64,000 nt of DNA, taken from an uncultured Chloroflexia bacterium. GTDB lineage: Bacteria; Chloroflexota; Anaerolineae; Anaerolineales; UBA11858. The stretch's first letter is position 1, and each line of letters starts with the position of its first letter. The stretch is from contig CAVQGY010000002.1 of the NCBI GenBank assembly GCA_963712165.1, positions 134,611-198,610 of the forward strand, given 5' to 3'. Made by a program: the position numbers and the translations under genes. The notes below the pieces were generated by a model. That model saw only the letters and a list, made by a program, of their open reading frames with translations, was not told the origin of the DNA and ran no database searches. Shown here piece after piece: positions 4,943 through 62,603 of this stretch.

Positions 4943-4995
4943 TTCAGCACCTCATCTGGATATCTCATCAGACCAACTTTGGGTTTGTTCGGATC

Positions 4996-5469: not shown

Positions 5470-5478
5470 GGTTATCTC

Positions 5479-6357: not shown

Positions 6358-6414
6358 ATTGCCTCTCCATGCGTTTCAAGCCCTATTCAATTATTTATTT
6401 CTAAACCACAGTAC

Positions 6415-7285
6415 TCAGCCCACATCCAGCAGTGAGATCTCCCTCTGCAGGCAGTCTTCCAGGGAAGTCGGCTGTCTTCCCAGCAGCCAGTGCAGCATAC
6501 GGGGGTTGCCGGAAAATCCATGGTTCTGATAATGCAGGAACATTTTAACCAAAGTGGAGACCTGATAGGAACCCAGGCCAGATCTGGGATACCTGCTCCT
6601 GCCAATCCTCCAGAGAGATCTGCTCAGCCTGGATCTCTTTGCCCAGCAGTCTTCCAAGCAGAGAAGCGATCTCTTCTTGGGATGTTAATCCAGTACCGAC
6701 CAGCTGATAGACAGCCCCGGCATGGGTCCCTTCAGTCAGCACGATCGCTGCAACATCAGCAACATCGTGAAGATCCACCAGGCAGAGCCTGGTGCTAACG
6801 GAGTAGGGCACCTGGTAAATGCCCTCCCGACTGATCCTATCCAGCTGGTTTGTGATGTTCTGCATATAAGCGGTTGGCTGGAGAATGGTGAACGGAAGCC
6901 CGGAAGCGATCAACTGCTCTTCCACGCGCAGCTTCAACCAATGATGGGGCATATCCTCCAGCTGGGGATGCAAGACGGAATGGTAAACGAAGTGGTCCAC
7001 ACATTCACGGAAGGCTTCCTGGATGACAATTTGGCCGATTTCCACTTCTCGGGGATGAATATTGGGAGGAATATGATAAACCGCTTGCACACCCTGCATC
7101 GCGTTTTGCAGGTCCTCTTCACTCAGCAGGTCACCCAGAAGGGCATTCTCCGCTCCAGCCTCGATCACACTCGAACGGTGTTCCTCCTGGTGGATCAACC
7201 CCCGCACCCGGACCCCTCTGGCTGCCAATGATCGGATGACAGCTAAACCTGTTTTCCCGGCTGCACCGGTTACCAGTATCATCAT
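6415..7285 (-). pseudogene. NmrA-like NAD(P)-binding protein interrupted by a frameshift
   Basis: The N-terminal 246-aa ORF (6545..7285) has a Rossmann motif, ILVTGAAGKTGLAV. The conserved family C-terminus (GLGSYQVSTLVKMFLHYQNHGFSGNPRMLHWLLGRQPTSLEDCL) continues in another frame (6415..6657). The frame change maps to about 6560-6600. Confidence 0.7.
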
Positions 7286-7292
7286 CTACCCC

Positions 7293-8966: not shown

Positions 8967-9014
8967 TTCTTTCCTCCCCAATCGGATAACCCTGGACTGA
9001 GCCAGAGGCAATCT

Positions 9015-10259
9015 TTACCCTATCTTGTAATGCTCCGCGAACGCTACCAGGGCTTCCTGGAACAGGCTGATCGGAGGCCGGACCAGTCCAGCACCTACCT
9101 GGCCAATGCCAGCTTCCTTGTGGGCGATCCCGGTATTGATCCGCGGGGTGATATTCTTTTCAACAATCTTGCGAAGATCCATCCCGGTAGGCGTACCCCT
9201 GAAGTCTAGGGGTGGGATAGTGAAATATTTATGCTCCGCGAAGGTGATCTCATACATTTCCAGAGTGGTATTGATAGCATCCTTGGGTGTTCCGCTGACA
9301 AAGTTAACGATTGCCGGCGCACTGGCCATGGCAAAACCACCTATGCCAGCTGATTCTGTGATGGTGCTGTCCCCAATATCCCCACTGGAGTCCTCTTCCG
9401 TATAACCCGGGAAATAAAGTCCCTTCGGAGTCGGTACCGGGGCGGTGAACCAGCGCTCTCCCAAACCGCTGATCCGGATCCCAAAATCCGTGCCATTACG
9501 GGCCATAACACTGACGATCGTGCTGCCCTCGATTCCGTGAGCGACATCGGACATGGCTTTGCAGGCAGCCATGACAGGATTGAGCACACTCAGCGCGTTT
9601 TCTCCCAGGAATGCCAGGACTTTTGAAGCCGCCTTGTTATCTTTAGCAACCGCGGTGATCAGGGGGGCCAGCTTGGCGGTGAACAGGATCGAGCCGGCTT
9701 TATTGCGGTTGTGGCCTTCATCGCCCATGTGCAGCGATTCCGCCAGCAGGGCCCGGATATCGATGCCCTCGCTGGACTCGATCGCATCCTTCAGCAAAGG
9801 AGCCATGACATCTTCCATCCAGCGCAGCTTGGCAATCACTTCTTCTGAATAGGCGCCATAGCGCAGCACCTTGCCGTAGCCTTCATTAAGGTTGGAATAG
9901 GTCTTATTTCCATGAGTTTTATTTTCCAGGATGTAGACCGACATCGATGGGCTGGTCAAACCTGCCATCGGCCCTACAGCCTGGTGGTGGTGGCAAGGCT
10001 CTAATTCAATCTCGCCGGACTCGACCAGTTTTTGGGCCTCTTTCATATCCTTGGCTTTGCCCTCGAAGATCAACGCTCCGGTGATTGCTCCCCGCATCGG
10101 GCCTGAAGCGCGGTCCCAACTAATGGGAGGTCCTGCATGCAGCAGTAGGTTGTCCCGCATTCCCGGGATAACATCGATGGCTTTGCCCATTCCAACCCAG
10201 ACGGGACGGGCCTCCATCATTCGTTCAACTGCTTCCTGATTGGCTTTTTCTATATCCAT
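9015..10259 (-). CDS. DUF1116 protein, YlbE/AllG homologue
   Basis: 414 aa. LLHAGPP...PCHHHQAVGPMAG...NLNEGYGKVLRYGAY...GIRISGLGERWFTAP...INTGIAHKEAGIGQVGAG closely tracks the E. coli YlbE pattern as I recall it. Confidence 0.85.
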   Translation of the reverse strand: MDIEKANQEAVERMMEARPVWVGMGKAIDVIPGMRDNLLLHAGPPISWDRASGPMRGAITGALIFEGKAKDMKEAQKLVESGEIELEPCHHHQAVGPMAGLTSPSMSVYILENKTHGNKTYSNLNEGYGKVLRYGAYSEEVIAKLRWMEDVMAPLLKDAIESSEGIDIRALLAESLHMGDEGHNRNKAGSILFTAKLAPLITAVAKDNKAASKVLAFLGENALSVLNPVMAACKAMSDVAHGIEGSTIVSVMARNGTDFGIRISGLGERWFTAPVPTPKGLYFPGYTEEDSSGDIGDSTITESAGIGGFAMASAPAIVNFVSGTPKDAINTTLEMYEITFAEHKYFTIPPLDFRGTPTGMDLRKIVEKNITPRINTGIAHKEAGIGQVGAGLVRPPISLFQEALVAFAEHYKIG

Positions 10260-10297
10260 TCCCAGCTCCTTTTCAACCAGACTAAGGCATTAAACTA

Positions 10298-11191
10298 TCA
10301 AGAATCCTTTTTTGTATATCGTTTACCCGGCTCGAACTTGGAGCGGGCTTCTTTCAGAATTTCCTCATAGAGGGCCAGGTTGCGGTCCTCGAGGTGATCG
10401 AACGGCTGAGGGCTCTTGCTGCCCCAGGTGATGTAGCGCAGGGGATCCGGATCCAATTTAGCGGCAATGATCTCCTCTGTACCCCGGGCCTGGGCCAGCC
10501 GCCAGGCAATCGGGTTAACGATCATGCTGTGTCCGAAATAATAATTGCCACCTGCATCCGGTCCAACCATATTCGTGCTGACCATATAGACATGGTTATC
10601 ATATGCCCGGGCGCAGTTTGTGATATACCAGATATCAAAGGACCGCAGCAATGCTGAGGGCCGGACAATCACTTCGGCTCCCTTTACAGCTAAGAGGCGC
10701 GACAGTTCCGGAAAATCCCCATCATAACAAATGATCATACCGATCATGCCCAATTCGGTTTCATAGACCTCGGCGCTGGTTCCAACTTCAGTCCAGCCCC
10801 CGAATTCCTTCCTCTCTCCCGGAAAGGGATGGGTCTTATCATAGATGCCGATGATCTGGCCATCAGGACCGATCAGAATCGACGCGTTCAGGATCCGTCC
10901 TTTTTCCCCAGCCCTGCGGTATGTTGGCCAGACCACATGAACACCCAGTTTCTGAGCCCTTTCCTGGATGGTTTCGGTCAAACTACCCGGAACCTCATCT
11001 ACCAGTTCCCATAAAGCATCAGCTGAGAGCCCAGTATCAAATCCGGTAGTCACCGTTTCAGGGAAGACCACCAGATCAGCCTGGTAATCTTCAACTGCTT
11101 TATCCAGCCATTTGACGCATTTGGCAATATTTTCCTGGGGTTTATTGGGAGTTATTGCGATCTGGACACAGGCGGCTGTAAATTCTTTCAT
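10298..11191 (-). CDS. Carbon-nitrogen hydrolase (nitrilase superfamily; amidase or N-carbamoyl hydrolase type)
   Basis: 297 aa with Glu in VVFPETV and the catalytic Cys context GMIICYDGDFPE. Confidence 0.85.
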   Translation of the reverse strand: MKEFTAACVQIAITPNKPQENIAKCVKWLDKAVEDYQADLVVFPETVTTGFDTGLSADALWELVDEVPGSLTETIQERAQKLGVHVVWPTYRRAGEKGRILNASILIGPDGQIIGIYDKTHPFPGERKEFGGWTEVGTSAEVYETELGMIGMIICYDGDFPELSRLLAVKGAEVIVRPSALLRSFDIWYITNCARAYDNHVYMVSTNMVGPDAGGNYYFGHSMIVNPIAWRLAQARGTEEIIAAKLDPDPLRYITWGSKSPQPFDHLEDRNLALYEEILKEARSKFEPGKRYTKKDS

Positions 11192-11207
11192 CAGGAAGTA
11201 TCTCCTT

Positions 11208-12941
11208 TTATCCTTTCATCTTTTCAAGCAGGGCAGCCAAATCAGTATTCCCGCCGGCTGCTGGTTTCCAATCAACCTGGATCACATCCCTTTCCTGGTC
11301 CTTCAGGGACTCGGTAAAGGATTCCAAACCAACGTTAATGGCTGCAAAGGGGCCGTTCACAGTCTCCAGGTCGATCCCGCTGAAATCCTTCTCGTCCTTG
11401 ACCAGATCCACTCCCTCAAGCCCACCCACCAGCTTTCCCGCATATCTAACCGCCTGGTCGCTGCTCAGGTAAACCTTTCCGCCAGCCTTTTCCAGAACTT
11501 CCCGTTGGGCAGCCATATCCTGGGGATCGAGGTCAGTCCCGGAGAGGGTGATCACCACATCCAGGCGCCGATTATTTTTACTCGCGCTCTTGATCGCAGA
11601 TTCGATCGCCGGCGCCAGCTCGCTGGCTGGATCGGGGTGAGAGCCATAACCCAGCACGACATCCAGCAGGATCAGGGCCACTTCGGGGTCAGCGGCTTCT
11701 GTTTCCAGACGCTGGATGCGGAGTTCGTTATCCATCATCGGATGCAAGCGTCCTACAGTGAATTCATCTTCCCCAAGGTCGACGATCGTATGCTCCTGAC
11801 TGATCAGTGAGTTCTCCAGCTTCTTTTCTTTGTTAATTGGCACATTGGAATAAAGATTGGGCAGCGTCTTATCAAGAATCAGCAGGGCTTCATAAGCCAG
11901 GGTGCCGCCAGAATACAACCCGCGCAAGTAACGCTGGCTGGGGTTGAATCCACCCAGATCCATCTCACCCTCCGCCAGCGGTGTTTCCGAATCGCTTTCG
12001 AGGGCCACCGCGGCCGCCGCAGTATCGTCAAAGGTGGAGGCGAAATAGAGATTATCGATCTCTTTTAAATTAGTCTGATAACCGATAAAATTCACCACGA
12101 CCGGTTTGGACAGCTCCCTGGCATAGGACAGGATACGGTCAGCAGTTACAGTATCGGGCGGCTTGGAGATCAGGACGATCACCTTCGTATCCGGGTCACG
12201 GTCCAGTAAATCCAGGGCCATGCGGGTGGTGATGCCGCCTACTTTGGAGGACAGATCCCGGCCGCCTGTCCCAATGGCATGGGTCAGTCCCCCGCCGTAG
12301 TGGTGGATGCGGATCGAGACCTGCTGCAATCCGGTTCCGGAAGCGGCCACCAGACCGATCGCTCCTGCCCGGGTTCGGTTGGCGAAGCCCAATCCTGTAC
12401 TCTTGACGATGGCTGTGCCGCAGTCCGGTCCCATTACAAGCAGGCCTTTACTCGCGCCCAGTTCTTTCAATTCGATCTCTTCCTCCACAGTGACGTTGTC
12501 ACTGTAAAGGAAAACGTGTTTTCCCAAACGCAAAGCCTCGCGAGAAACCCCGGCGGCATAACGTCCTGGGACAGAGATCAAGACCCAGTTTGCACCGGGC
12601 AGGGATTTGTCAGCTGACTCAAGGCTTTTGGGCAGGAAATCCTCCCCGGCACCTTCCCTGCTGCGCCGGGCAGTCACCAGTTCATCGACTTTGGAGATTG
12701 CATTTCGCGCTATTTTTTCGTCCTTGGCTTTGACCACGATCACCAGATCGTCGGCTTTGGCGACTTTGATCTCATCCACCAGGAGGCCGGTTTGGCCTAA
12801 TAGTTCTAGGTTGGCCTCCGTGCCCATCACTACCCCGGCGTCTTCTACGCCAGGAAGCTCAGCCAGGGAACGCTGAAGCTGCATCAGGACTACAGAATCA
12901 AAATATGCACCAGTGCGGATCTCAGTTTGAATAAATACCAT
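11208..12941 (-). CDS. FdrA/AllF-like protein (succinyl-CoA-synthetase-alpha fold)
   Basis: 577 aa. The N-terminus MVFIQTEIRTGAYFDSVVLMQLQRSL is characteristic of FdrA, and CoA-ligase-like GPDCGT and GTGLQQ segments are present. Confidence 0.85.
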   Translation of the reverse strand: MVFIQTEIRTGAYFDSVVLMQLQRSLAELPGVEDAGVVMGTEANLELLGQTGLLVDEIKVAKADDLVIVVKAKDEKIARNAISKVDELVTARRSREGAGEDFLPKSLESADKSLPGANWVLISVPGRYAAGVSREALRLGKHVFLYSDNVTVEEEIELKELGASKGLLVMGPDCGTAIVKSTGLGFANRTRAGAIGLVAASGTGLQQVSIRIHHYGGGLTHAIGTGGRDLSSKVGGITTRMALDLLDRDPDTKVIVLISKPPDTVTADRILSYARELSKPVVVNFIGYQTNLKEIDNLYFASTFDDTAAAAVALESDSETPLAEGEMDLGGFNPSQRYLRGLYSGGTLAYEALLILDKTLPNLYSNVPINKEKKLENSLISQEHTIVDLGEDEFTVGRLHPMMDNELRIQRLETEAADPEVALILLDVVLGYGSHPDPASELAPAIESAIKSASKNNRRLDVVITLSGTDLDPQDMAAQREVLEKAGGKVYLSSDQAVRYAGKLVGGLEGVDLVKDEKDFSGIDLETVNGPFAAINVGLESFTESLKDQERDVIQVDWKPAAGGNTDLAALLEKMKG

Positions 12942-12959
12942 AAATGATCTCTCAAGTCT

Positions 12960-14168
12960 TTAGATTATTTTTTTCGCCTCAAAATCGGCGACCTGCTCTG
13001 GGGAGTAGCCCAGCAGGTCGATCAAGATTTGATGGTTATGTTCTCCCAGGACTGGAGGTGGATGATGCACCTCAGCTGGCGTTCGGGAGAGTTTATATGG
13101 GAAGCCGGTCAGGGGGATCAGGCCGGCAGTGTTATGTTCCACTCTCTGTATAAATCCTCTATCCTCGCTCTGGGGGTGTTCAAAAACCTCTGGCAGGGAG
13201 TTGATCGGGCCGCAGGGCAGGCCAGCCTCCCGGATCAGAGCTAGCCAGTCCTCGGCATCCTTCTCCTTGAAAATCCCATTCAGAGTCGCAATTAGATCTG
13301 ATCGGTTCTTGACTCGTTCCTGGTTGGTCAGGAAGCGGGGATCTTCTTTTAATTGGGGATGGCTGATCGCATCACAAAGCTTTTCCCACTGGCGCTGGTT
13401 GGCTGCGCCCAGCACAAACCCTTTATCACGAGCCTGGAAGGGCTCATAGGGAGCGATATTGGGATGAGCATTGCCAACTCTCTCTGGCGCCTGGCCGCTG
13501 ACCAGATAATTCGAGGCAACATTGGCAAGCAGGGCTGCCTGGGTATCCAAAAGGGAGATATCGATCTGCTGCCCTTCCCCGGATTCCATCCGTTCATAGA
13601 TGGCAGCCAGAATGGCAGATGCGGCGAACATGCCGGAGGTGATATCGATGATCGGGATTCCCACCCGGGAGGGCGGTCCCTCTTTGGGTCCGGTGATGCT
13701 CATCATTCCCCCTTCCGCCTGGACAATGGCATCGTAACCCGGACGATCTTTATCAGGACCAGTGCGGCCGTAACCGCTGATCGAGCAGTAGATCAAACCC
13801 GGGTTGCCCTCTTTCAGGGCTTCATATCCCAGACCCATCTCATCCAAAACGCCGGTGCGGAAATTTTCGATAAAAATATCAGAAACCCGGACCAGTTTAC
13901 GGATGATCTCCAGTCCAGCAGGGTCCTTCAGATTGACTGTCAGGCTTCTTTTATTGCGATTTGCAGAGAGGAAATAGGCTGATTCACCGGGATAGGGCCC
14001 ATAGGGGTCACCTACAAAGGGAGGTCCCCAGCCGCGGCTTTCATCCCCCGCGCCAGGGAGCTCGATCTTGATCACATCCGCGCCAAAATCCCCCAGCATC
14101 ATGGTGCAGTAGGGACCAGCCATGGCCCGGGTAATGTCTACGATCCGGATATTTTTGAGGGCAGCCAC
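12960..14168 (-). CDS. Family III CoA-transferase (CaiB/BaiF type)
   Basis: 402 aa with RIVDITRAMAGPYCTMMLGDFGADVIKIE. It has a GTG start preceded by AAGGAG. Confidence 0.9.
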   Translation of the reverse strand: MAALKNIRIVDITRAMAGPYCTMMLGDFGADVIKIELPGAGDESRGWGPPFVGDPYGPYPGESAYFLSANRNKRSLTVNLKDPAGLEIIRKLVRVSDIFIENFRTGVLDEMGLGYEALKEGNPGLIYCSISGYGRTGPDKDRPGYDAIVQAEGGMMSITGPKEGPPSRVGIPIIDITSGMFAASAILAAIYERMESGEGQQIDISLLDTQAALLANVASNYLVSGQAPERVGNAHPNIAPYEPFQARDKGFVLGAANQRQWEKLCDAISHPQLKEDPRFLTNQERVKNRSDLIATLNGIFKEKDAEDWLALIREAGLPCGPINSLPEVFEHPQSEDRGFIQRVEHNTAGLIPLTGFPYKLSRTPAEVHHPPPVLGEHNHQILIDLLGYSPEQVADFEAKKII

Positions 14169-17815: not shown

Positions 17816-19130
17816 TTAGGGACTGACTACCCGCCCCATAAAGAGAATTGAATTGGTCTGGTGATCCCTGATAGCAAACAGGAACGGTCGGTCCACCGTC
17901 AGCTGGATCGGATTCTCAGGTGCAGACGTCAGTTTCATGATCACCGCTGTCGCTGCGGCTGCCTCTGTGCCCTCTTCATCCACCCCAATATAAGCTTTAT
18001 GGAAGACGTCTGAGATGAACAGGTCCTTATCTCCAGTCATACCAGAAAAATCTGCTGCGCCGCTGAAGGCTTCCGGCATGCCCATGGCTGCCAGGATCTT
18101 CGCCAGGCTGATCTCGGTCTCAAACTCGAATTTTGGGAATATCAATTGGACGGGGGCATATGTCATTTCAGAGATGATGTTTTCCAACTCCCGGCTGGAA
18201 AAACCACCCTCGAAATCCTTGAACGATCCCTCGTCTGGCATTAAAACCAGCATGGATACCTGTCCGCCCAGATAAGGAAGAGCCACGGCCTGGAAACCTT
18301 CTCCCTGGTAGTAGGGCAAACTAGCATCCGACCCCAGCCTCATCATTGGCACATCCAGCTCCTCTCCGTCCAGGCCATAGAAGATGCCATTTTCAGTGAG
18401 GGATTCCTCAAAAGGTTCCATCCAGGTCGCCTTGAAGTAGATAGCGTTGCTGAGCACCAGGCGGGTATCGGTTGTCACAGCACCCTCTGGGATCAAGTCC
18501 CTGATCTTTTCTTTGGTCTGATCACTAACCCAGCTGTTTATGGTTAGGCGGGATTCTTCTGGTGCCTGGATATAATCAAGCAGGCGCAGGCCGGCACCGT
18601 AGTTGACCGCCAGGGTATCCAGAAAACTCTCCTCAAATTGGAAATCCTTTTGACCCCAAATCGAATTGGCAATATTCAGCTGGAAGGGATCTCCTTGATC
18701 GTTCGGGATATCCAGCTCGGCCAGTCCCTCCAGGTATTGAGCCAGGGCGTTAAAACCGGCATGGAGTTGGCCATCATTTTCGAGGAAATGGAATACCGCG
18801 GCCATTTCCCTGGCCGTGTTCCCTTCTGCGCCGGCATAGGTCATCGCCAGAGCGGAGGAAATGCTGTAGGGTGAATAGAACAGGTTGCCTTTCAGGGAGG
18901 ACAGCTGTTGGTAAAGGTCCACAGCAAAAGCGTTGTTGCCTTCAGCCAGCTCAGCCAACTCATCCAGAGGATAAGTCCGCCAGATCTTCCCGAGAGAGCT
19001 CGGAAATGACTTCCTGGGGTTTATTTCCTTCCGGCAGAACGGAGCTCCCCTCTGAACAGCCAGACAGGACCATGATCCAAATTCCTGCCAGGACAAGATA
19101 GATGATATTTGATTGCTTTTGGGTCTTCAT
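17816..19130 (-). pseudogene. Serpin (serine protease inhibitor) with lipoprotein signal peptide, interrupted by a frameshift
   Basis: The serpin body (NLFYSPYSISSALAMTYAGAEGNT...GVDEEGTEAAAATAVI...VDRPFLFAIRD...FMGRVVSP) is in one frame. The signal/lipobox (MKTQKQSNIIYLVLAGIWIMVLSGC) is in another frame (18960..19142). The switch occurs between about 18962 and 19010. Confidence 0.75.
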
Positions 19131-32271: not shown

Positions 32272-35200
32272 CTAAAAACCTTCTAGCCTGGTCATATCCA
32301 GGACTCCCTCAGCTAGTCCGGATATTTCCTGCAGCAATCCGAGGCGGTTCTCCCGGGTCTTCTGGTCCTCATCCATAACCAGCACGTTATCAAAGAAATC
32401 CGTGATCAGAGGAACCAGGGGTGTAAAGATCGCAAAAAATCCTTCCAGGTCACCGGGAGTTATCTTGGACTGGCGAGCTTTTGTTAAGCTCTCACCCAAA
32501 TCCGCCTCTGCTTTTTCAATGAATCTGGCCGGATCAACCGAATATCTTTTTTCAAGATCCCTGGTAATCCTCACACAGCGGGCAAACGAATCCAGTGTGA
32601 GATCCCAGTCATCCTTTTTAACCCATTCAGCGAGGGATTTTACCGCCCGAAAAGCGCTGGCTGGGTTATACCCTTGTGCACTCACTATCGCATCAACCAC
32701 ATCATAGGCATACCCTTCATCTCGAAGGTAGTTATGCAATCGGTCCTGGATGAATCCCAAGCAGTCCTCTCTGGTTTCTGGAGAGAAATCGATGGGCAGG
32801 TTGAGAGCCGCGGCGTCCAGCGCCGAGGACAGGTCCAGATCCAGATCCCAATGAATGAGATTACCCACCAAACCCAGTGCCGCTCGGCGTTGAGCAAAAG
32901 GATCTTTGCTGCCTGTGGGTGCCAGGCCGGCAGCGAATAATCCTGCCAGGGAATCCAGGCGGTCAGCCAAACCCACGACCAGTCCGGGCAGGGTCGATGG
33001 CGCCGGGTCATTCGCGGAAGAGGGCAGATACTGTTCCCGGATAGCCAGGGCAACAGATTCTTGTTCACCTGAACTTCGGGCATAATAATATCCCATTACT
33101 CCCTGGAGAGAAGTCATTTCAACTACCATCTGGGTAGCCAGATCTGCTTTGGATAGTTCAGCTGCCCGGCGGCTGGTCTCCAGATCTCCCTCTGCCAGGC
33201 CAACCAGGTCAGCGAGTTTATCCACTAGACCCCGCACACGTTTGGTTTTATCACCCATCGATCCCAGGTCAACCTGGAAGGTGAGGGTATCAAGAGCTGG
33301 CAGGTAATCCGCCAGGGGTTTTTCACGATCAGCTTTCACGAAGTATTTCGCATCTGCGAAGCGAGCCAGGATGACATCCGTGTTACCTTGCGTGATCAGG
33401 GGCAGCTGGGGATATTTACCTTCCGGGGATGGTTTATTGGCAATGGTAATAAAATAAGGAAGCAGCGCTCCATCCTTCTCGACCGGGAAATAGCGCTGAT
33501 GCTTTTTCATCACCGAGATCAATACCTCCCGGGGAAGGTCCAGGAAAGCGGGATCAAACTCACCCAGCAGCGCAGTAGGAGCTTCCACCAGGTGGGTCAC
33601 TTCTTCCAATAAGGCTGGATCCTCGGGCACCTCACCACCAACCTTCCCGGCAAGGTGCTGGACATCTTTGAGAATCCTTTGGCGGCGTATATCCTGGTCC
33701 AGGAGGATCCCTTGTTTATCCAGGATCTTAAAGTAATCCTTCGGGGAGGAAACCTCAATATCAGCTCCGTTATCAATGAAGCGCAGGCCTCGTGTATACG
33801 GTCCGGCTTTTAAACCAGCATAGGTGAACGGGATCCAGGAACCCCCATGCAGCGCCAGCAACCAGCGAATGGGTCGTGAAAAGGCCAACTTGGGATCATT
33901 CCAGCGCATGGATTGCCCAAAACGGACAGACCCTATCAAATCCGAAAGCGCACCCATCAAAACCTCATGGGCAGGCAATCCGGCTTTACGTTCCACGGCA
34001 ACCACATATTCTCCGCCGTCAATTTCCTTGACTTCCAGGTCCTCCAGGGATACTCCCTTGGATTTCGCAAAGCCTTCAGCAGCCTTGGTGGGCTGGCCGC
34101 CTTCATCAAAAGCCCTTTCCCGGGGAGGTCCCTTCACCAGCTGCTCGAGATCCTCTTGCTGATGGGCTAATCCGTCCAGGGATAATACCAGCCGGCGGGG
34201 GGTGGCCATCACCCTCAGATTCTCATAAGACAGACGCAGATCAGAGAACATGGCCGGGGCTGCCTGTGTTAGCTGGCGGATCGCATCCTCTACATCCCCC
34301 GAAGGTAATTCCTCAGTGCCGATCTCCAATAAGAAATGCGACGGTGTAGTGGGAGCTTTTCCGGTCGATGCTCCTGTGGTTTTGGCAGCGGCGTCATCTC
34401 CGCTCCCCAGCCAGGGATATTCTAGTTCCATGCGCTCATCCAGATAGGCCTCCGCGACCTGCTTGGAAAGGTCCCGCATGCGGTGGAAGAAACCTGCCCG
34501 TTCAGTCACACCTACAGCACCGCGCGTGTCCAATAGGTTAAAGGTGTGGGAACACTTAAGCACAAAATCATGAGCTGGAAGGGTTTGCTTCATTTCCAGG
34601 CAGCGGAGAGCCTCGCTCTCATAGATTCTGTATAACTCCCGCATATGATCAACATCTGCCAGCTCAAAGGCATATTTACTGAACTGCTGTTCACTTTGCA
34701 GCTGGACATCCCCGTATTTGATATCCTTGGACCAGCGGATATCCTTAAAATCTCGTACTCCTTGCAGCGCCATCGCAATCCGTTCCAATCCGTAGGTGAG
34801 CTCCACAGAAACCGGATCCAACGCCTGGCCTCCGGACTGCTGGAAATAGGTGAATTGAGTGATTTCCAGGCCATTGAGCCAAACTTCCCAGCCCAGCCCC
34901 CAGGCACCCAGAGCGGGGGATTTCCAGTTATCCTCCACAAACCGGATGTCATGTTCAACCGGGTCTATGCCCATAGCTTCCAGGGATCTTAAATACAGCT
35001 CCTGGGGATTGCCAGGATCCGGTTTAAGGATGACCTGGTATTGTGTGTGTTGATAAAAGCGGTTGGGATTTTCACCGTACCGTCCGTCATCCGGCCGGAT
35101 GGAGGGTTCCACGTAGCCAACATTCCAGGGCTCTGGACCCAGTACTCGCAGGGAGGTGGCCGGGTTCATCGTCCCGGCACCGACCTCAGTGTGATAAGGA

Positions 35201-35280
35201 TGCCAGATCAGGCAGCCATTATCCGCCCAGAATTTTTCCAGGGCCATAATGAGAGATTGGAAATCCAGCGCTTCTGTCAT
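32272..35280 (-). CDS. glyQS: Glycine--tRNA ligase, fused alpha-beta (GlyQS) polypeptide
   Basis: This 1002-aa single ORF has a GlyQ-like N-terminus ([24 protein letters not shown]...[12 protein letters not shown]). It continues without a stop into a GlyS-like beta part. Confidence 0.95.
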
Positions 35281-50632: not shown

Positions 50633-51229
50633 ATGAAAAGACAGCTGGGCCTGGATAAACTAGCTCCCAAGGCCGGTGACCTGGCGCTAGATTTCACCCT
50701 CTCGGATATCTCAGGTACGGAATCGATCACCCTGTCCGATTTCCAGGGGAAAAAGCCGGTGGCGCTGATCTTTGGCAGCTTCACCTGACCTCCCTATGTC
50801 AAGGGTACCGTGAGTATCAAGGAGCTCTATGAGAAATATCACGACCAGGTCCAGTTCCTGAGCATCTATATCCGCGAAGCCCATCCCATTGACGGTTGGT
50901 GGTTGGGCCGGCGCCTGACCAGGGGGTTGATGAAGATGTTTGAACCCAGGGCATCCCAAGAGCACTATGATCCCCAGACCATGGAGGAACGCAGGTCGGT
51001 GGCAGGGGAGTGCGAGACTGCTCTCCAATATGGGATCCGCACCTATGTAGACGAGATGGATGACAGGGTAAACGACACTTACGCCGCCTGGCCGACCCGA
51101 TTGTACCTAATTGGCCTGGATGGAGTGGTCGTTTATGCCGGCGGGATGGGGCCATATGATTTCCGCCCGGCAAAACTGGAAAAGGCCATTGAGACCTATT
51201 TGGCCAGCCAGCAAAATCTTAGCAGCTGA
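50633..51229 (+). CDS. Deiodinase-like thioredoxin-fold protein with in-frame UGA (probable selenocysteine) at 50786-50788
   Basis: ORFs 50570..50788 and 50810..51229 are in the same frame. Read through, the site is ALIFGSFT-TGA-PPYV, followed by FLSIYIREAHPIDGWW. GGAGGG lies 5 nt upstream of ATG 50633; ATG 50570 is an alternative start. Confidence 0.75.
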
Positions 51230-58999: not shown

Positions 59000-59938
59000 T
59001 TATCTGGATTTGAATCCCCCTTTGATCTTCTCATAAGGCTGTAGGTTGAAAGGACATACTTTCACGCAGACCGAACAGCCGTGGTATTTGTTGAAATACG
59101 GGAAACACTCATCATTCCGGAGATAGGTTTCCTGGCCGTCCGGGTGCAGCACCGGGTTGTCATAAAATGCATCCGCCGGGCACTCCCGGTGGCAGATCCG
59201 GCAGCTTTTACAGAACTCTCGCACCCAGGTGTGGTTATTGCCTTCGTTGAAGGGCAGATTGGCGATGCTGGTAAAGACCGCCGCCAGCCGCACCCGGGGA
59301 CCATGCTCGGGCGTGATGATCAATCCGTTCAGGCCCATCCAGCCCAGCCCGGCCATCTGTGCCAGCGGCGGATAGAGCGCCAGTCCGTTCAGAGGATGCC
59401 CGGCATGGGCGCCATATCCCCTTTCTCGTAGGAATGTGGCCAATGAGTTATTGATCCGGCCCAGGTCTCGGTAGGTTTCCATCACTGTCCGCATGCAGGC
59501 AATGCTGGGCGCGCTGTTGATGCCATCCGCATCCATCTCCATCGACACTACAATTGCGTTATCGTACAACACCGCCTTTTCCTGGAAGACCCAGCGCCGG
59601 GGAAGTTTTGTGTAGCCGATGCTGGCAGCGCCCAAATGGAAGGCTTCTGCTTCCAGCTCCTCGATCAATTTCTGGTCTGCCACGATTTTTGGTTGGGGCG
59701 GATTCTCGTCCAGGGTTTCCAAGGATTCTCTGATCCCGGAGAGGCAGGCCAGCATGGTTGGGAGCAATCTCACCGGGGGGCCAGCTTCGCTGCTTTCCAG
59801 CCTGCCCCGGATGATATCAAAGCGTCTGGGAGAAATTTCCGTGAAACGGATGACATCATCTCTTGACTGCAGCTCCTCTTCCAGGGAGAGTGCGGTCTGG
59901 AAGAGCGATGTTTTGTACAACATCTTTGGCAAGCTCAT
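59000..59938 (-). CDS. Fe-S protein of the reductive-dehalogenase / epoxyqueuosine-reductase (RdhA/QueG) superfamily
   Basis: 312 aa with GLGWMGLNGLIITPEHGPRVRLAAVFT, then CKSCRICHRECP and CSVCVKVCP cluster motifs. No Tat signal was seen. Confidence 0.6.
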   Translation of the reverse strand: MSLPKMLYKTSLFQTALSLEEELQSRDDVIRFTEISPRRFDIIRGRLESSEAGPPVRLLPTMLACLSGIRESLETLDENPPQPKIVADQKLIEELEAEAFHLGAASIGYTKLPRRWVFQEKAVLYDNAIVVSMEMDADGINSAPSIACMRTVMETYRDLGRINNSLATFLRERGYGAHAGHPLNGLALYPPLAQMAGLGWMGLNGLIITPEHGPRVRLAAVFTSIANLPFNEGNNHTWVREFCKSCRICHRECPADAFYDNPVLHPDGQETYLRNDECFPYFNKYHGCSVCVKVCPFNLQPYEKIKGGFKSR

Positions 59939-59966: not shown

Positions 59967-60920
59967 TTATCCATAAAGATATTGATAGACAGCATCCAGA
60001 CCAACCAGGGCTGCACTCACCGCGCCTACCAGGGTGATCTCATAGATCATGTCATCCGTATACCCGGCTGCTTTTAAATCCTCCACATCCTCATCGGTAA
60101 TCCGATAAGCATGGAGGGAAAGATTCTTGAGATAATTTCTAAGCTCATCTGGTAGATCAGGAGTTTGTCCACCCTCAACTCTCCATTGGGACATAATATA
60201 TAACTCAATATCCGATCTCATTGCCGGATCCGTCTCACCCTCCACAGAAAGCAGATGCTGACGTCCCGCCTCTACTTCAGGAGGCCGGATCAGGCCATCT
60301 TCTGTTTTCACCCAATCCTCAACTGCTGGTGAGCCTCGTAAGATCCCGCCGGTAAAATTCAACATTCTCGCCAGTCGTTTTTGTTGAACGCCCTGGGGGA
60401 CTGGAAAGCCAAATGCGTCTGCCACCCGGTCGATCAAATTATAATGAAACCCCACATTGGCAGCTTCCTGAATAGCCAGGTTATCTAAACCGGATTTTCG
60501 GATTTCATCCATCAGGTCGTGGTCCATATCCTGGGGATGAACAGTCATCACCTCAAGCATTTTCAAAGCTGCCCGGGTCTTTTCCGGAATATCCGCCTGG
60601 GTCCAATCCTCCAGCACTGCATCAAGAACATTCTGGGGCATATGCAGAGCCGCGACCGCGACATGTGCTTCGAGTCAAAACATACATTGGTTAAGCTTGG
60701 AGACGAAACTGGCAAAAAGCTCGGCTTCCCCTTTGGTCCAGCCTCCTGAACCTGCCATACCACGCACAATATAGGATATAAAATCCTTTTTAAAGAAAGA
60801 CGGTTTGTAGGAGAGGGTCAATGGTGGACCTGGTAATGCTCCCACCCACCATCTGGCAAACCTCAATCCCAGACTCATATACCAAGGCCTGTGACTGCTT
60901 TTCATCAGGTCGATCCGCAT
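59967..60920 (-). CDS. AhpD/carboxymuconolactone-decarboxylase-family protein with in-frame UGA (probable selenocysteine) at 60675-60677
   Basis: ORFs 60675..60983 and 59967..60641 share a frame. Read through, the site is E-LFASFVSKLNQ-C-M-F-TGA-L-E-A-H, which equals the AhpD E-x11-C-x-x-C-x3-H motif with the second Cys replaced by TGA. I place the start at 60920 (GGAGG 6 nt upstream). Confidence 0.75.
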
Positions 60921-60943
60921 AAATTTCCTCCAAGAAACTTCTG

Positions 60944-60955
60944 GTACAGATGTAC
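60944..60955. promoter_or_regulatory. GTACAgaTGTAC palindrome, candidate TetR operator in the divergent promoter region
   Basis: A perfect 5+5 inverted repeat abuts a TATAAT box (60956-60961). A second TGTACA lies at 61000-61005. Confidence 0.4.
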
Positions 60956-61021
60956 TATAATTAATTTGCCCCGACCCGTCCATACCAAATTCTCAACTCT
61001 GTACATAAAAGTGAGATTATC

Positions 61022-61633
61022 ATGCCTCAAACCATATCGAAGGATCCTCGCGCTATCAGAACCAGGACCGCTCTTCAATCCTCATTTAAGAATCTCCTTA
61101 GACACAAACCGTATAATAAAATCTCCATCGCCGATATCGCAAATAAGGCCGGGGTTGCCCGGCATACCTTTTATAACCACTACGAGACCAAACAGGATCT
61201 CTTGTATTTTCTGGTGGATACCATCCTGGAACCATATTATAAAAATCTGGAAAATTGGAGTCCATTCCTGACCAACCCTGAAGAAGAGCAGAGGATGCAT
61301 ACCTCGTTCTTCAAAGCCTGGAAGGATAACGCTGATGTGATCGGTTTATTAGAGTCTGTCGATCTGGATCTGGTCATTGTTGATAGGCTGAAAAGTTTAT
61401 TCAGACGGTTCTATTATGAGAAGGTCTCGTCTGAGATGCCAGGTATCAGCCAGAATTTTGCTAATTACGTGATCAGCTATAACGCTTACACATTGGCTGG
61501 TTTGTTAAAGCCATGGTATGACTCGGGGATGAAAGATTCTCCTGCCGATCTGGGAGGATTTCTGGTGCAGCTTTCTGGAGCCTCTCAGCGGTTCCAGGCT
61601 ATTGAAAAATACAGGCATATACTTGGTGGCTAA
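61022..61633 (+). CDS. TetR/AcrR-family transcriptional regulator
   Basis: 203 aa with N-terminal HTH ISIADIANKAGVARHTFYNHYETKQDL. Confidence 0.9.
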   Translation: MPQTISKDPRAIRTRTALQSSFKNLLRHKPYNKISIADIANKAGVARHTFYNHYETKQDLLYFLVDTILEPYYKNLENWSPFLTNPEEEQRMHTSFFKAWKDNADVIGLLESVDLDLVIVDRLKSLFRRFYYEKVSSEMPGISQNFANYVISYNAYTLAGLLKPWYDSGMKDSPADLGGFLVQLSGASQRFQAIEKYRHILGG

Positions 61634-61741: not shown

Positions 61742-62113
61742 GTGGCCCTAAAACCCCTGCATTTCATCGGCCAGGAAGTCCCGGTGGAGTTCGACAAGAA
61801 ACCGGCACTGGAGAAAAAACCCCCTGCCCCGGACCGATTCATTTGGGAGGAAGAGACTTTCCAGGTGGAGTCGGTGCTGAGTGAATGGCAGGATTTTGGC
61901 CGCCGGGGGCGGATGTCCAGTAATATGCGGCCCCACAACGCCGCCAAGGCCCTTCGCCGGGGGTCCTGGGGAGTGGGTCGCTTCTACTTCCGGGTGTTAA
62001 CTATAGGAGGTCGGATCTTTGACATTTACTATGACCGAGCTCCCAAGAACGTTGAAGACCGAAAGGGATCCTGGTTCCTGGACAGGGAAATGGCCCTGGA
62101 TCCTGAGGCATAG
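61742..62113 (+). CDS. Hypothetical protein (DUF6504-like pattern)
   Basis: 123 aa with a GTG start after AAGGTAAGG. The pattern F-W...V..VL..W...G...YFRV...G.IFDIYYD...WFL recalls a small family common in Chloroflexi and Actinobacteria. The family assignment is from memory only. Confidence 0.55.
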   Translation: MALKPLHFIGQEVPVEFDKKPALEKKPPAPDRFIWEEETFQVESVLSEWQDFGRRGRMSSNMRPHNAAKALRRGSWGVGRFYFRVLTIGGRIFDIYYDRAPKNVEDRKGSWFLDREMALDPEA

Positions 62114-62144
62114 GTTTTCGAGAAGGTTTTTTCAGGAGGGAATC

Positions 62145-62603
62145 ATGCTTGGCAAGAAAATGCTCCTAACTGCCTATTCATACACCCATTATCTGGTGAT
62201 GGAAGCGATCCAGGGTCTCACTCATCAGGAGAGCTTGCTCAAACCTCCCGGGGGAGAGAATCCAGCCAACTGGATCCTGGGCCACATCCTGACCAGCCGG
62301 AGCAATGTCCAGGCGATGTTGGATCTGGAACCCATTTGGAACTACGATCGCTGTAAACTTTACCTGCCGGACTCGGAACCAATCACGGCAGAAAGCCTGG
62401 TGGAAAATCTGGAAGATATGCTCGCCGACCTGGAAACGACTCAGGAAGATCTAATGAAGGAACTGCAGGGTCTGAATGATGATCTACTGCTGGAACCTCA
62501 GGGAGATAACAGCCTCGGGGAGGAGCTGTCCGGGTATGCCATCCATGAAGCCTACCACGCCGGCGAGCTAGCGATAATCAGGATTTGGCTCCGGAGATCA
62601 TGA
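62145..62603 (+). CDS. DinB-family protein
   Basis: 152 aa from ATG 62145 (AGGAGGG upstream). DinB-type His motifs are ILGHIL and IHEAYHAGE. Confidence 0.8.
   Translation: MLGKKMLLTAYSYTHYLVMEAIQGLTHQESLLKPPGGENPANWILGHILTSRSNVQAMLDLEPIWNYDRCKLYLPDSEPITAESLVENLEDMLADLETTQEDLMKELQGLNDDLLLEPQGDNSLGEELSGYAIHEAYHAGELAIIRIWLRRS

What the first reader, a model, noticed from the sequence alone, without database searches (positions are those of the whole stretch)
59967..60920. Second probable selenoprotein: the TGA completes an AhpD-type E-x11-C-x-x-U-x3-H motif
ORFs 60675..60983 and 59967..60641 on the minus strand are in the same frame. Translating through TGA 60675-60677 gives GEA-E-LFASFVSKLNQ-C-M-F-[TGA]-L-E-A-H-VAVAALHMPQNVL. 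This reproduces, residue for residue, the AhpD/CMD-family proton-relay and redox motif Glu-x11-Cys-x-x-Cys-x3-His (Pfam CMD, PF02627), with the second Cys replaced by the TGA codon. AhpD-like CxxU proteins are a known bacterial selenoprotein family.

Thirteen nt downstream of the TGA codon, the mRNA can form GUCGC-GGUC-GCGGC (60649-60662). This is a 5-bp stem with a GGUC apical loop, reminiscent of the GGU-containing loop of bacterial SECIS elements.

Two such genes within 10 kb argue that the organism uses Sec and that automated annotation here will be truncated.
Basis: partly seen in the sequence, partly recalled or inferred. Interest (0 to 1): 0.7.

Follow-up and report, generated by a model that had tools for sequence, protein, structure and literature searches.

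The report
Mis-split AhpD-like selenoprotein gene
Two adjacent "genes" are really one 317-residue AhpD-type redox enzyme whose in-frame TGA almost certainly encodes selenocysteine; this belongs to a selenoprotein family already catalogued, so it is a well-supported annotation fix rather than a new kind of biology.

Summary
On the minus strand, one reading frame runs from ATG 60920 to the stop at 59969-59967. It is interrupted only by TGA 60677-60675 (codon 82), giving E67-x11-C79-x-x-[TGA]82-x3-H86.

- **Family:** with TGA read as Cys, the protein passes NCBIfam TIGR01926 (peroxidase-related AhpD family). The match spans the TGA.
- **Conservation:** all 19 related loci I fetched carry TGA at this codon, down to 29% identity. 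They come from Chloroflexota and Myxococcaceae MAGs and from metagenomes. Both flanks are conserved as protein. More distant homologues have Cys there.
- **Hairpin:** a 5-bp hairpin with a GGUC loop starts 12 nt after the UGA. It is conserved and meets the published bacterial SECIS consensus. However, four of its five pairs are forced by the Ala-Ala-Val-Ala-Ala codons.
- **Genetic code:** TGA is an ordinary stop elsewhere in the window.
- **Second candidate:** a deiodinase-like TGA gene lies 10 kb away.
- **Untested:** the Sec machinery could not be checked; none lies in the 64 kb window.

"AhpD-like, TIGR01926, CxxU" is a listed selenoprotein family, so this is a new member of a known kind. 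Three extras stand out: a sestrin-like second helical domain, a conserved pairing with a small reductive-dehalogenase-like Fe-S gene, and a divergent TetR gene with a palindromic operator-like site.

The parts
59967..60920 (-). Complete selenoprotein coding sequence: 317 codons including UGA82, plus the TAA stop at 59969-59967. Public annotation splits it into an 81-aa and a 224-aa product.
   Evidence: frame; TIGR01926 84.8 bits > 81.8 across the TGA; public 81-aa and 224-aa calls; homologues
60675..60677 (-). In-frame TGA, codon 82, proposed selenocysteine. It takes the place of the second Cys of the CxxC redox motif.
   Evidence: TGA in all 19 fetched Sec-type loci; Cys, TGC, in distant homologues; aligned to CxxC of 6k40 and 2oyo
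60663..60722 (-). Active-site segment E67 (60722-60720) ... C79 (60686-60684) - U82 - H86 (60665-60663). This is the AhpD-type Glu/Cys/Cys/His relay.
   Evidence: (E67, C79 and H86 invariant in 12 homologues)
60649..60662 (-). Candidate bacterial SECIS core: a 5-bp stem GUCGC/GCGGC with a GGUC loop. Twelve nt separate it from the UGA, and the loop starts 17 nt after the UGA.
   Evidence: conserved 14/14; the one pair made of two synonymous sites is CG x12, UG x1, UA x1; lowest synonymous divergence of 188 windows; MFE -9.7 kcal/mol over 40 nt; E. coli fdhF has a GGUC loop 18 nt after its UGA. Caveat.
60402..60758 (-). AhpD-like catalytic domain, residues 55-173.
   Evidence: TIGR01926, profile positions 54-174 of 178; PDB 6k40, 2oyo, 2prr, 3c1l, 2pfx
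59970..60386 (-). C-terminal helical domain, residues about 179-317, with no Pfam family. It is probably a degenerate second AhpD-like half, giving a sestrin-like two-lobed protein. In a Cys-type relative (L016) it is a separate 113-aa gene.
   Evidence: no Pfam hit; hhalign domain 1 vs domain 2, E 2e-4, probability 44%; AF2 pLDDT 80.6; Sestrin2 TM 0.62 and 0.56; L016
60926..60931 (-). Shine-Dalgarno GGAGGA, 5 nt upstream of ATG 60920.
60942..60957 (.). Palindrome TAGTACA-TC-TGTACCA in the divergent intergenic region. Likely the operator of the neighbouring TetR regulator.
   Evidence: TAGTACAnnTGTACYA conserved in L002, L004, L008, L009, L010 and L011. The operator function is inferred.
61022..61633 (+). 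Divergently transcribed TetR-family regulator.
   Evidence: TetR_N, TetR_C_8; conserved next to the gene in 9 loci; L006
59000..59938 (-). Downstream gene, 28 nt after the stop: a 312-aa reductive-dehalogenase/QueG-superfamily protein with two 4Fe-4S motifs.
   Evidence: PceA 8q4h 1e-22, 4uqu 2e-20, NpRdhA 4ras 9e-13, QueG 5d08 6e-8; adjacent in 11 loci, in both gene orders, down to 42% identity

Best explanation
Positions 60920-59967 (minus strand) are one gene for a 317-residue AhpD-like thiol/selenol oxidoreductase of the TIGR01926 'peroxidase-related' branch of the AhpD/CMD superfamily.

**Recoding (inferred).** Codon 82, UGA, is decoded as selenocysteine. The proposed mechanism is SelB with Sec-tRNA(Sec), recruited by a short GC-rich hairpin with a GGUC loop (60662-60649) just downstream of the UGA.

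**Catalysis (inferred by homology to M. tuberculosis AhpD).** Sec82 and Cys79 would form the redox-active pair, cycling through a selenenylsulfide, with Glu67 and His86 as the proton relay. The likely function is reduction of a peroxide or of a partner protein's oxidised cysteine.

**Architecture (supported by a model).** A second helical lobe, residues about 179-317, makes the protein sestrin-like.

**Operon (adjacency shown, co-transcription and role inferred).** The gene is probably co-transcribed with a small cytoplasmic reductive-dehalogenase-like B12/Fe-S protein (59938-59000). Both would be under a divergent TetR regulator that binds a conserved palindrome. The most likely role is an ancillary redox or protective partner of that enzyme.

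**Shown here:** single frame, motif, family membership, TGA conservation, Cys homologues, hairpin conservation, gene linkage. **Inferred:** Sec insertion itself, the SECIS function of the hairpin, and the enzymatic role.
For: - **Frame and motif:**
- **Family:** the joined protein passes TIGR01926 at 84.8 bits against a cutoff of 81.8, with residues 55-173 crossing the TGA. PDB AhpD-like proteins 6k40, 2oyo and 2prr align at E 7e-15 to 1e-13, with their CxxC over C79/U82.
- **TGA conservation:** 16 loci plus L021, L022 and L023 all have TGA at this codon, at 29-100% identity. The N-terminal 81 residues are 50-83% identical and the C-terminal part 42-70% identical among the 15 loci.
- **Database relatives:** all 78 hits cover at most 74% of the query. 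Eight of the 11 I inspected start at the codon right after the TGA. In the exhaustive search, no representative better than E 5e-16 has an N-terminal extension.
- **No second start:** residue 94, the Met of the supposed second gene, is Leu or Ile in 8 of 12 homologues.
- **Cys homologues:** P0137, P0136, P0138, P0154 and P0214.
- **Hairpin:** conserved with one compensatory and two wobble changes at the only free pair. Codons 86-90 have the lowest synonymous divergence, 0.35 against a mean of 0.61. All four bSECIS consensus criteria are met in the window: 4-nt loop, 5-bp stem, G at loop positions 1-2, 17-nt spacing, MFE -9.7 (criteria from PMC13188914). E. coli fdhF has the same GGUC loop 18 nt after its UGA.
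- **Standard code:** TGA ends 14 of 36 long ORFs in the window, including rpoD and dnaG.
- **Second candidate:** a TGA gene matches deiodinase PF00837 at 90 bits.
- **Literature:** AhpD-like/TIGR01926 CxxU is a catalogued selenoprotein family (PMC13188914; PMC1088965; PMC2398784). Chloroflexi are known Sec users (PMC1794560; PMC5389517; PMC13326102).
- **Linkage:** the RDH-like gene is adjacent in 11 loci and in two gene orders. In Sulfurospirillum multivorans an AhpD-like protein is made only in PCE-grown, dehalogenating cells (PMC4585668).
Against: - **No Sec machinery seen.** The window has only tRNA-Val, and the ORFs of 250 aa or more that I scanned (all but two) include no selA, selB or selD.
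- **The hairpin is small.** The 60-nt fold is not better than shuffles (z = +1.45). No Rfam family matches.
- **The hairpin is largely forced.** Four of its five pairs come from the fixed GC of the Ala codons. A Cys-type relative (L018) and a Trp-type relative (L019, TGG) keep an equivalent hairpin. Two relatives (L002, L008) miss the -7.5 kcal/mol criterion.
- **Pfam CMD is below threshold.** The score is 18.6 bits against a gathering score of 23.
- **No direct evidence.** There is no experimental evidence for Sec insertion or for peroxidase activity.
Confidence: 0.88

Rival explanations
1. There are two real, separate genes. Translation stops at TGA 60677-60675, giving an 81-aa peptide. An independent 224-aa protein then starts at ATG 60641, as in the public annotation.
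For: Public gene callers made exactly these two calls. In a Cys-type relative the C-terminal module is a separate gene (L016), so split architectures do exist in the wider family.
Against: - The 11 codons between the TGA and ATG 60641 (LEAHVAVAALH) are conserved as protein and contain the catalytic His86.
- Met94 is Leu or Ile in 8 of 12 homologues, and no Shine-Dalgarno sequence precedes it.
- A single AhpD domain model and the solved structures align continuously across the TGA.
- Cys-type homologues are uninterrupted.
Confidence: 0.03
2. The UGA is read through as a standard amino acid such as Trp or Cys, either by near-cognate suppression or by a reassigned code, and not as Sec.
For: One relative (L019, protein P0133) has TGG (Trp) at this codon. 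No Sec machinery could be shown.
Against: - TGA is a normal stop in 14 of 36 long ORFs here.
- The position is the catalytic second Cys of CxxC, where Trp would abolish redox chemistry.
- 19 of 19 fetched Sec-type loci keep TGA rather than drifting to TGG or TGY.
- A SECIS-like hairpin lies at the canonical distance.
- The family is a documented selenoprotein family.
Confidence: 0.04
3. This is a pseudogene, an AhpD-like gene inactivated by a nonsense mutation.
For: An in-frame stop sits in a catalytic motif. L001 also shows frame disruptions in its N-terminal part.
Against: - The same TGA occurs in lineages as far apart as 29% identity, and in two phyla, with both halves conserved as protein and no other stops.
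- The codon is always TGA, never TAA or TAG.
- The L001 frame disruptions are confined to one nanopore-style MAG. Its near-identical sister L004 is intact.
Confidence: 0.01
4. Sec is inserted, but the 5-bp GGUC hairpin is only a by-product of the Ala-Ala-Val-Ala-Ala peptide. The true SECIS would be a different or larger structure.
For: - Four of five pairs are fixed by Ala codons.
- An equivalent hairpin is present in Cys-type L018 and Trp-type L019.
- The fold z-score is not significant.
- L002 and L008 are below the energy criterion.
Against: - RNAalifold finds no other conserved structure within 57 nt.
- The only free pair always pairs, including one C:G to U:A double change.
- Residue 87 varies among Ala, Thr and Val, but its codon keeps C or U at positions 2 and 3, which preserves pairing. 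Cys-type L016, L017 and L020 have AAA or GGA there and lose the stem.
- Synonymous divergence is lowest exactly here.
- The loop sequence and spacing match E. coli fdhF.
Confidence: 0.2

Closest known systems
AhpD-like selenoprotein family (COG2128 / TIGR01926, CxxU), from the Sargasso Sea and GOS selenoproteome surveys and listed in BSepDB
   Same: It has the same HMM family (TIGR01926 passed). It has the same CxxU motif with Sec in place of the second Cys, and a SECIS-like hairpin right after the UGA. Cys homologues are widespread.
   Different: This clade is 317 aa, with an extra C-terminal helical domain of about 140 aa. The typical single-domain protein is about 180-200 aa. Its closest relatives in the databases are all TGA-type. 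It is linked to an RDH-like gene and a TetR regulator. I could not check whether the catalogued exemplar (MCB9421940.1) belongs to this clade.
Mycobacterium tuberculosis AhpD and the solved AhpD-like proteins 6k40 (D. radiodurans), 2oyo and 2prr
   Same: The Glu-x11-Cys-x-x-Cys-x3-His relay is reproduced, and the sequence alignment covers residues 57-175. The Mtb residue numbers E118/C130/C133/H137 are from my own knowledge of Koshkin et al. 2003, which is cited in PMC4585668.
   Different: Those proteins use Cys, not Sec. The solved relatives lack the second lobe. No AhpC or lipoamide partner genes are nearby.
Sestrin2 (human; chains in 9lwf and 9lvj)
   Same: It is the best structural match to the AF2 model of residues 83-317 (TM 0.62 and 0.56, probability 1.0 and 0.99). 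Both are helical proteins built from two AhpD-like lobes.
   Different: The Foldseek E-value is only 0.12-0.23 and sequence identity is 13-15%. There is no Pfam PA26 hit. Sestrin uses Cys. This is resemblance of architecture only, not membership.
E. coli fdhF SECIS
   Same: The apical loop GGUC is the same, and it sits 17 nt after the UGA here against 18 nt in fdhF. UGA is followed by C in both.
   Different: The stem here is only 5 bp (6 bp in some relatives) and has no bulged U or long lower helix. Function is untested.
SMUL_1530, the AhpD-like protein of the Sulfurospirillum multivorans organohalide-respiration region
   Same: It is an AhpD-family CxxCxxxH protein genetically and physiologically tied to a reductive dehalogenase, and is proposed to protect it from oxidative stress (PMC4585668).
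   Different: It is the Cys form, from a different phylum, and its dehalogenase is a respiratory PceA. The partner here is a 312-aa, apparently cytoplasmic RDH/QueG-like protein of unknown substrate.
NF041238 AhpD_rel_CFYUT and NF053654 YciW-related (seleno)proteins
   Same: Both are AhpD-related (seleno)protein families with CxxU, and both give weak hits.
   Different: The scores of 43.5 and 31.5 bits are far below the cutoffs of 175 and 310. This protein is not a member.

Membership tests
NCBIfam TIGR01926 peroxidase-related enzyme (AhpD family) | Whole-protein HMM score at or above the curated cutoff of 81.8 bits | tested here: met
   84.8 bits, E 6e-24, residues 55-173 against profile positions 54-174 of 178, with U82 entered as Cys. 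The margin is small.
AhpD/CMD superfamily | Catalytic motif Glu-x11-Cys-x-x-Cys-x3-His | tested here: met
   E67, C79, [TGA]82 and H86. E67, C79 and H86 are invariant in 12 homologues. The motif aligns to the CxxC..H of 6k40 and 2oyo.
AhpD/CMD superfamily | Pfam CMD (PF02627) gathering score of 23 bits | tested here: not met
   18.6 bits, E 0.002, matching residues 58-90 only. The Cys-type relative P0154 does pass at 28.3 bits.
Bacterial selenoprotein | In-frame UGA aligned with Cys in homologues, with protein conservation on both sides | tested here: met
Bacterial selenoprotein | bSECIS consensus: loop 3-9 nt, stem 4-16 bp, G in loop position 1 or 2, 16-37 nt from the UGA, MFE <= -7.5 kcal/mol (PMC13188914) | tested here: met
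   Window: loop GGUC, 5 bp, 17 nt, -9.7 kcal/mol. Twelve of 14 relatives meet all four criteria; L002 and L008 miss the energy criterion. bSECISearch itself was not available.
Bacterial selenoprotein | Genome encodes selA, selB, selC (tRNA-Sec) and selD | not testable with these tools
   None is in the 64 kb window. Indirect support: a second TGA/Cys candidate (deiodinase-like), and the Sec trait is documented in Chloroflexi/Chloroflexota.
Bacterial selenoprotein | Selenium demonstrated in the polypeptide (75Se labelling or mass spectrometry) | not testable with these tools
   Experimental.
NF041238 AhpD_rel_CFYUT (seleno)protein | HMM cutoff of 175 bits | tested here: not met
   43.5 bits.
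Sestrin (PA26) | Sequence-family membership, plus the two-lobed AhpD-like fold | tested here: not met
   No Pfam hit. There is only fold resemblance, TM 0.62 with Foldseek E 0.12.

The most novel reading that the evidence does not exclude
The Sec-containing, sestrin-like AhpD protein and the adjacent 312-aa cytoplasmic reductive-dehalogenase/QueG-like B12/Fe-S protein would form a dedicated TetR-controlled two-gene module. In that module the selenol/thiol pair would either deliver electrons to the RDH-like enzyme or itself perform dehalogenation, as in deiodinase or Bmp8. That would be a selenium-dependent organohalide- or epoxide-reducing system in Anaerolineae-type Chloroflexota.

The pairing survives in both gene orders and down to 29% and 42% identity. 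A deiodinase-like selenoprotein lies 10 kb away. The AhpD domain gives a faint hit to the CMD-family debrominase Bmp8 (6ohi, E 0.11).
Probability: 0.12. Interest if true: 0.6.

Novelty: new member of a known kind. Interest (0 to 1): 0.3.

Why it matters
**Annotation.** The practical value is a fix. In this genome, and in essentially all of its database relatives, the gene is recorded as two hypothetical proteins of 81 aa and about 224 aa. That hides a redox enzyme and understates the selenoproteome of Chloroflexota.

**Biology.** The finding adds a clade of AhpD-like selenoproteins with three notable features:
- The closest relatives are all TGA-type.
- A second lobe makes the protein sestrin-like.
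- The gene is consistently paired with a reductive-dehalogenase-like gene.

The last feature gives a concrete, testable lead on what AhpD-like selenoproteins, whose function is still unknown, actually do. It does not change what is known about Sec decoding.

Tried and rejected
- **Rfam.** A search of the whole window and a permissive search around the TGA found only tRNA-Val and noise. This is not informative, because bacterial SECIS elements are poorly covered.
- **Single-sequence fold.** The 60-nt fold is not better than shuffles (z = +1.45). The case for the hairpin therefore rests on comparative data.
- **Lower stem.** A 3-bp extension, GCA/UGC, seen in the window is not conserved, so I dropped it.
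- **Source contig.** P0001 was not on record, so the organism's Sec machinery could not be examined.
- **Exhaustive protein search.** I used the post-TGA 235 aa instead.
- **P0133.** I first took its 'W' for a code-4 translation of TGA. The DNA shows a genuine TGG.
- **C-terminal domain.** Pfam found nothing for it or for its stand-alone relatives.
- **Bmp8.** No papers on it are in the library.
- **Upstream start.** I rejected ATG 60983, because homologues have stops between it and the conserved MR[IV]D start.
- **Sec machinery in the window.** The 474-aa and 643-aa ORFs that looked selA- and selB-sized are rpoD and dnaG.
Full report
**1. The observation**

Reading the minus strand confirms that ORFs 60675..60983 and 59967..60641 are in one frame. 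A single TGA at 60677-60675 separates them.

Counting from ATG 60920, the read-through product has 317 residues. It reads ...G-E-A-E67-LFASFVSKLNQ-C79-M-F-[TGA82]-L-E-A-H86-VAVAALHMPQNVL.... This is exactly Glu-x11-Cys-x-x-(TGA)-x3-His.

Twelve nt lie between it and the UGA.

**2. It is one gene of the AhpD family**

With the TGA entered as Cys, the protein scores 84.8 bits against NCBIfam TIGR01926, 'peroxidase-related enzyme'. The curated cutoff is 81.8. The match covers residues 55-173, so it runs straight across the TGA.

Solved AhpD-like structures align over residues 57-175 at E 7e-15 to 1e-13. These are 6k40, 2oyo and 2prr. Their C-x-x-C lies on C79/U82.

Pfam CMD is only sub-threshold, at 18.6 bits against 23. 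Two other AhpD-related (seleno)protein models, NF041238 and NF053654, are far below cutoff.

**3. The start codon**

ATG 60920 is preceded by GGAGGA at a 5-nt spacing. Every related locus with an intact, unshifted 5' end (14 of the 15; L001 is frame-disrupted there) begins M-R-[IV]-[DN]. Several have in-frame stops immediately upstream.

The upstream ATG 60983 is not conserved, and L010 has a stop between the two. Public gene calls on the source contig (1,297,979 bp) give an 81-aa product starting at this Met, plus a 224-aa product from ATG 60641.

**4. Comparative evidence for recoding**

*Word-indexed search.* A search of 5.8 billion proteins found 78 relatives. None covers more than 74% of the query. 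Of the 11 I inspected, 8 begin at the very codon after the TGA: LEAH, MEAH, MAAH, METH, VAAH, MTAH.

*DNA of related loci.* I fetched 15 related loci. Seven come from MAGs: six Chloroflexota (Chloroflexia, Anaerolineales or Anaerolineae) and one Myxococcaceae. Eight come from metagenome contigs. All carry a stop at the same codon, and it is always TGA.

- The N-terminal 81 residues are 50-83% identical.
- The C-terminal part is 42-70% identical.

*More distant relatives.* L023, at 39% identity, also has TGA at the homologous codon. So do L021 and L022 (two contigs carrying the same P0121 gene), at 29% identity.

*Exhaustive search.* In an HMMER search of 1.84 billion representatives, no hit better than E 5e-16 has an N-terminal extension. 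The near relatives therefore all appear to be TGA-type.

*Cys-type homologues.* Uninterrupted homologues appear further out:

| Protein | Length | Motif |
|---|---|---|
| P0137 | 301 aa | CNFC |
| P0136 | 322 aa | CQYC |
| P0138 | 202 aa | CSYC |
| P0154 | 197 aa | CAFC |
| P0214 | 194 aa | CAFC |

Where I read the DNA, the codon is TGC.

*No second start.* The 11 codons between the TGA and the supposed second start contain the invariant His86. The Met at residue 94 is Leu or Ile in 8 of 12 homologues. There is therefore no conserved second start.

*Standard code.* TGA is an ordinary stop in this genome. It ends 14 of 36 long ORFs, including rpoD and dnaG, which excludes a reassigned code.

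**5. The hairpin**

RNAalifold on 14 distinct sequences returns only this 5-bp stem.

*What is forced.* Four of its pairs are made by the fixed G and C of the Ala codons in H-A-A-V-A-A. They carry little independent weight.

*What is not forced.*

- The one pair formed by two synonymous third positions always pairs: C:G in 12 sequences, U:G in 1, U:A in 1. The U:A is a double change.
- Residue 87 varies among Ala, Thr and Val, but only through codons that keep C or U at positions 2 and 3 (GCY, ACC, GUC). Pairing is therefore preserved.
- Codons 86-90 have the lowest synonymous divergence of 188 five-codon windows in the gene. The value is 0.35 against a mean of 0.61, tied with one other window.

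*Fit to the published consensus.* The bSECIS consensus in PMC13188914 requires a loop of 3-9 nt, a stem of 4-16 bp, G in loop position 1 or 2, spacing of 16-37 nt, and MFE of -7.5 kcal/mol or lower. The window meets all four: loop GGUC, 5 bp, 17 nt, -9.7 kcal/mol. Twelve of 14 relatives also meet them.

The E. coli fdhF SECIS has the same GGUC loop 18 nt after its UGA. I confirmed the sequence, recalled from memory, as 100% identical in 5,419 E. coli genomes.

*Against.*

- The 60-nt fold is no better than shuffles (z = +1.45).
- Rfam finds nothing.
- The controls are mixed. Cys-type L016, L017 and L020 lack the stem, but Cys-type L018 and Trp-type L019 keep an equivalent one.

I regard the hairpin as a plausible SECIS core and as moderate, not strong, evidence.

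**6. Does the organism use Sec?**

I could not test this directly. The window contains only tRNA-Val. The long ORFs I scanned include no selA, selB or selD, and the rest of the contig was out of reach.

Indirect support comes from three directions:

With Cys in place of the TGA it matches Pfam iodothyronine deiodinase PF00837 at 90 bits. That is another catalogued bacterial selenoprotein family.
- Chloroflexi are documented Sec users with their own tRNA-Sec type (PMC1794560, PMC5389517).
- Some Chloroflexota MAGs carry 46-49 selenoproteins (PMC13326102). Sec-type hydrogenases are reported in Chloroflexota (PMC13582414).

**7. Architecture and context**

*Second domain.* Residues about 179-317 have no Pfam family. 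They align weakly, in register, with the catalytic domain (hhalign E 2e-4, probability 44%).

An AlphaFold model of residues 83-317 is all-helical (pLDDT 80.6, pTM 0.79). Its best PDB matches are Sestrin2 chains (TM 0.62 and 0.56), followed by bacterial AhpD-like proteins. Sestrin is itself built from two AhpD-like lobes. This is my own knowledge, from Kim et al. 2015.

In the Cys-type locus L016, this C-terminal module is a separate 113-aa gene just upstream of a single-domain AhpD-like gene. The window's protein therefore looks like a fusion.

*Downstream gene.* Twenty-eight nt downstream lies a 312-aa protein with two 4Fe-4S motifs. It is related to several proteins:

| Relative | PDB entry | E-value |
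|---|---|---|
| PceA | 8q4h | 1e-22 |
| PceA | 4uqu | 2e-20 |
| NpRdhA | 4ras | 9e-13 |
| QueG | 5d08 | 6e-8 |

These values come, with supporting family hits.

This RDH-like gene is adjacent to the selenoprotein gene in L001, L002, L004, L008, L009, L010 and L011, in the same order as in the window. In L003, L014, L021 and L022 the order is reversed. L021 and L022 are the 29%/42%-identity relatives. Conservation in both orders argues for functional coupling.

*Regulator.* A TetR regulator is divergently transcribed. It is conserved in 9 loci, plus L006. The intergenic region holds a conserved palindrome, TAGTACA-nn-TGTACYA, at window 60957-60942. This is a likely operator.

*Precedent.* In Sulfurospirillum multivorans, an AhpD-like CxxCxxxH protein encoded in the organohalide-respiration region is made only in PCE-grown cells. 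It was proposed to protect that system from oxidative stress (PMC4585668).

**8. Mechanism proposed**

SelB with Sec-tRNA(Sec) would read UGA82, guided by the hairpin. Sec82 and Cys79 would form the redox pair, with Glu67 and His86 as the proton relay, as in M. tuberculosis AhpD. The protein would reduce a peroxide or an oxidised partner, most likely in support of the co-encoded RDH-like B12/Fe-S enzyme. The TetR regulator would control both genes.

Sec insertion, the SECIS function and the catalytic role are all inferences. Frame, motif, family, conservation and linkage are shown.

**9. Novelty and verdict**

'AhpD-like protein, TIGR01926, CxxU' is an entry in the current list of prokaryotic selenoprotein families (PMC13188914). 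It was first reported from the Sargasso Sea in 2005, with 27 sequences. It was abundant in GOS, with 299 sequences of 'AhpD-like 1', and it is browsable in BSepDB.

The finding is therefore a correct identification of a mis-annotated member of a known selenoprotein family.

The clade's apparently TGA-only near relatives, its fused sestrin-like second lobe and the RDH-like/TetR module are modest new details. The most novel reading still open is a selenium-dependent dehalogenase-type module. It has little direct support, and I put its probability at about 0.12.

Noticed in passing
window 50633-51229 (+), TGA at 50786-50788: This is a second selenoprotein candidate. It reads FGSFT-[TGA]-PPY and, with Cys in place of the TGA, matches Pfam iodothyronine deiodinase PF00837 at 90 bits (cutoff 27). 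A hairpin with an AGU loop lies about 25 nt after the UGA. I did not check conservation of the TGA in homologues.
   Followed up: partly
L019:1454-2413 (protein P0133): This close relative of the Sec-type L021 has TGG (Trp) at the Sec/Cys position, one transition away from TGA. It keeps the downstream hairpin but is not next to an RDH-like gene. It may be a decayed or repurposed former selenoprotein.
   Followed up: partly
L016:427-768 and 758-1366: In a Cys-type relative, the C-terminal domain of the window's protein is a separate 113-aa gene that overlaps the start of a single-domain AhpD-like CxxC gene. Many stand-alone proteins of 100-140 aa hit this domain and have no Pfam family.
   Followed up: partly
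[not shown]
   Followed up: partly
window 60942-60957 and about 60985-61010: A conserved palindrome, TAGTACAnnTGTACYA, and a second conserved block, TTTGGTATGGA, lie in the TetR/selenoprotein intergenic region of the closer relatives. The distance of the palindrome to the start codon varies from about 20 to about 70 nt.
   Followed up: partly
window 62019-62603 (+); L019:234-719: A DinB_2 superfamily gene lies just beyond the TetR gene in the window. Another lies near the Trp-type homologue in L019. This may be a recurring neighbour; I did not examine it.
   Followed up: no
window 59000-59938 (-); L003:3969-4808: The RDH/QueG-like neighbour is unusually short (312 aa). Its N-terminal ~125 residues matched no Pfam model and were not covered by the RDH alignments, and I ran no signal-peptide or Tat-motif scan. 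L003 carries a second, divergent copy on the opposite strand.
   Followed up: partly
L001:1223-1610: The N-terminal part of the L001 homologue is broken by frame disruptions, while its near-identical sister L004 is intact. These are most likely assembly errors in a long-read MAG.
   Followed up: no
window 2585-14168 (-): This is a cluster of xanthine-dehydrogenase-type molybdoenzyme subunits (MoCoBD, FAD_binding_5), AllG, a CN-hydrolase, a cyclase, a CoA ligase and a CoA-transferase, with a xanthine/uracil permease at 258-1610. It is probably purine or N-heterocycle catabolism. Some molybdenum hydroxylases use a labile selenium cofactor (my own knowledge); I did not examine this.
   Followed up: no
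window 17816-19096 (-) and 32272-35280 (-): The window encodes a bacterial serpin (Pfam Serpin, 397 bits) and a fused alpha+beta glycine-tRNA ligase of 1002 aa.
   Followed up: no
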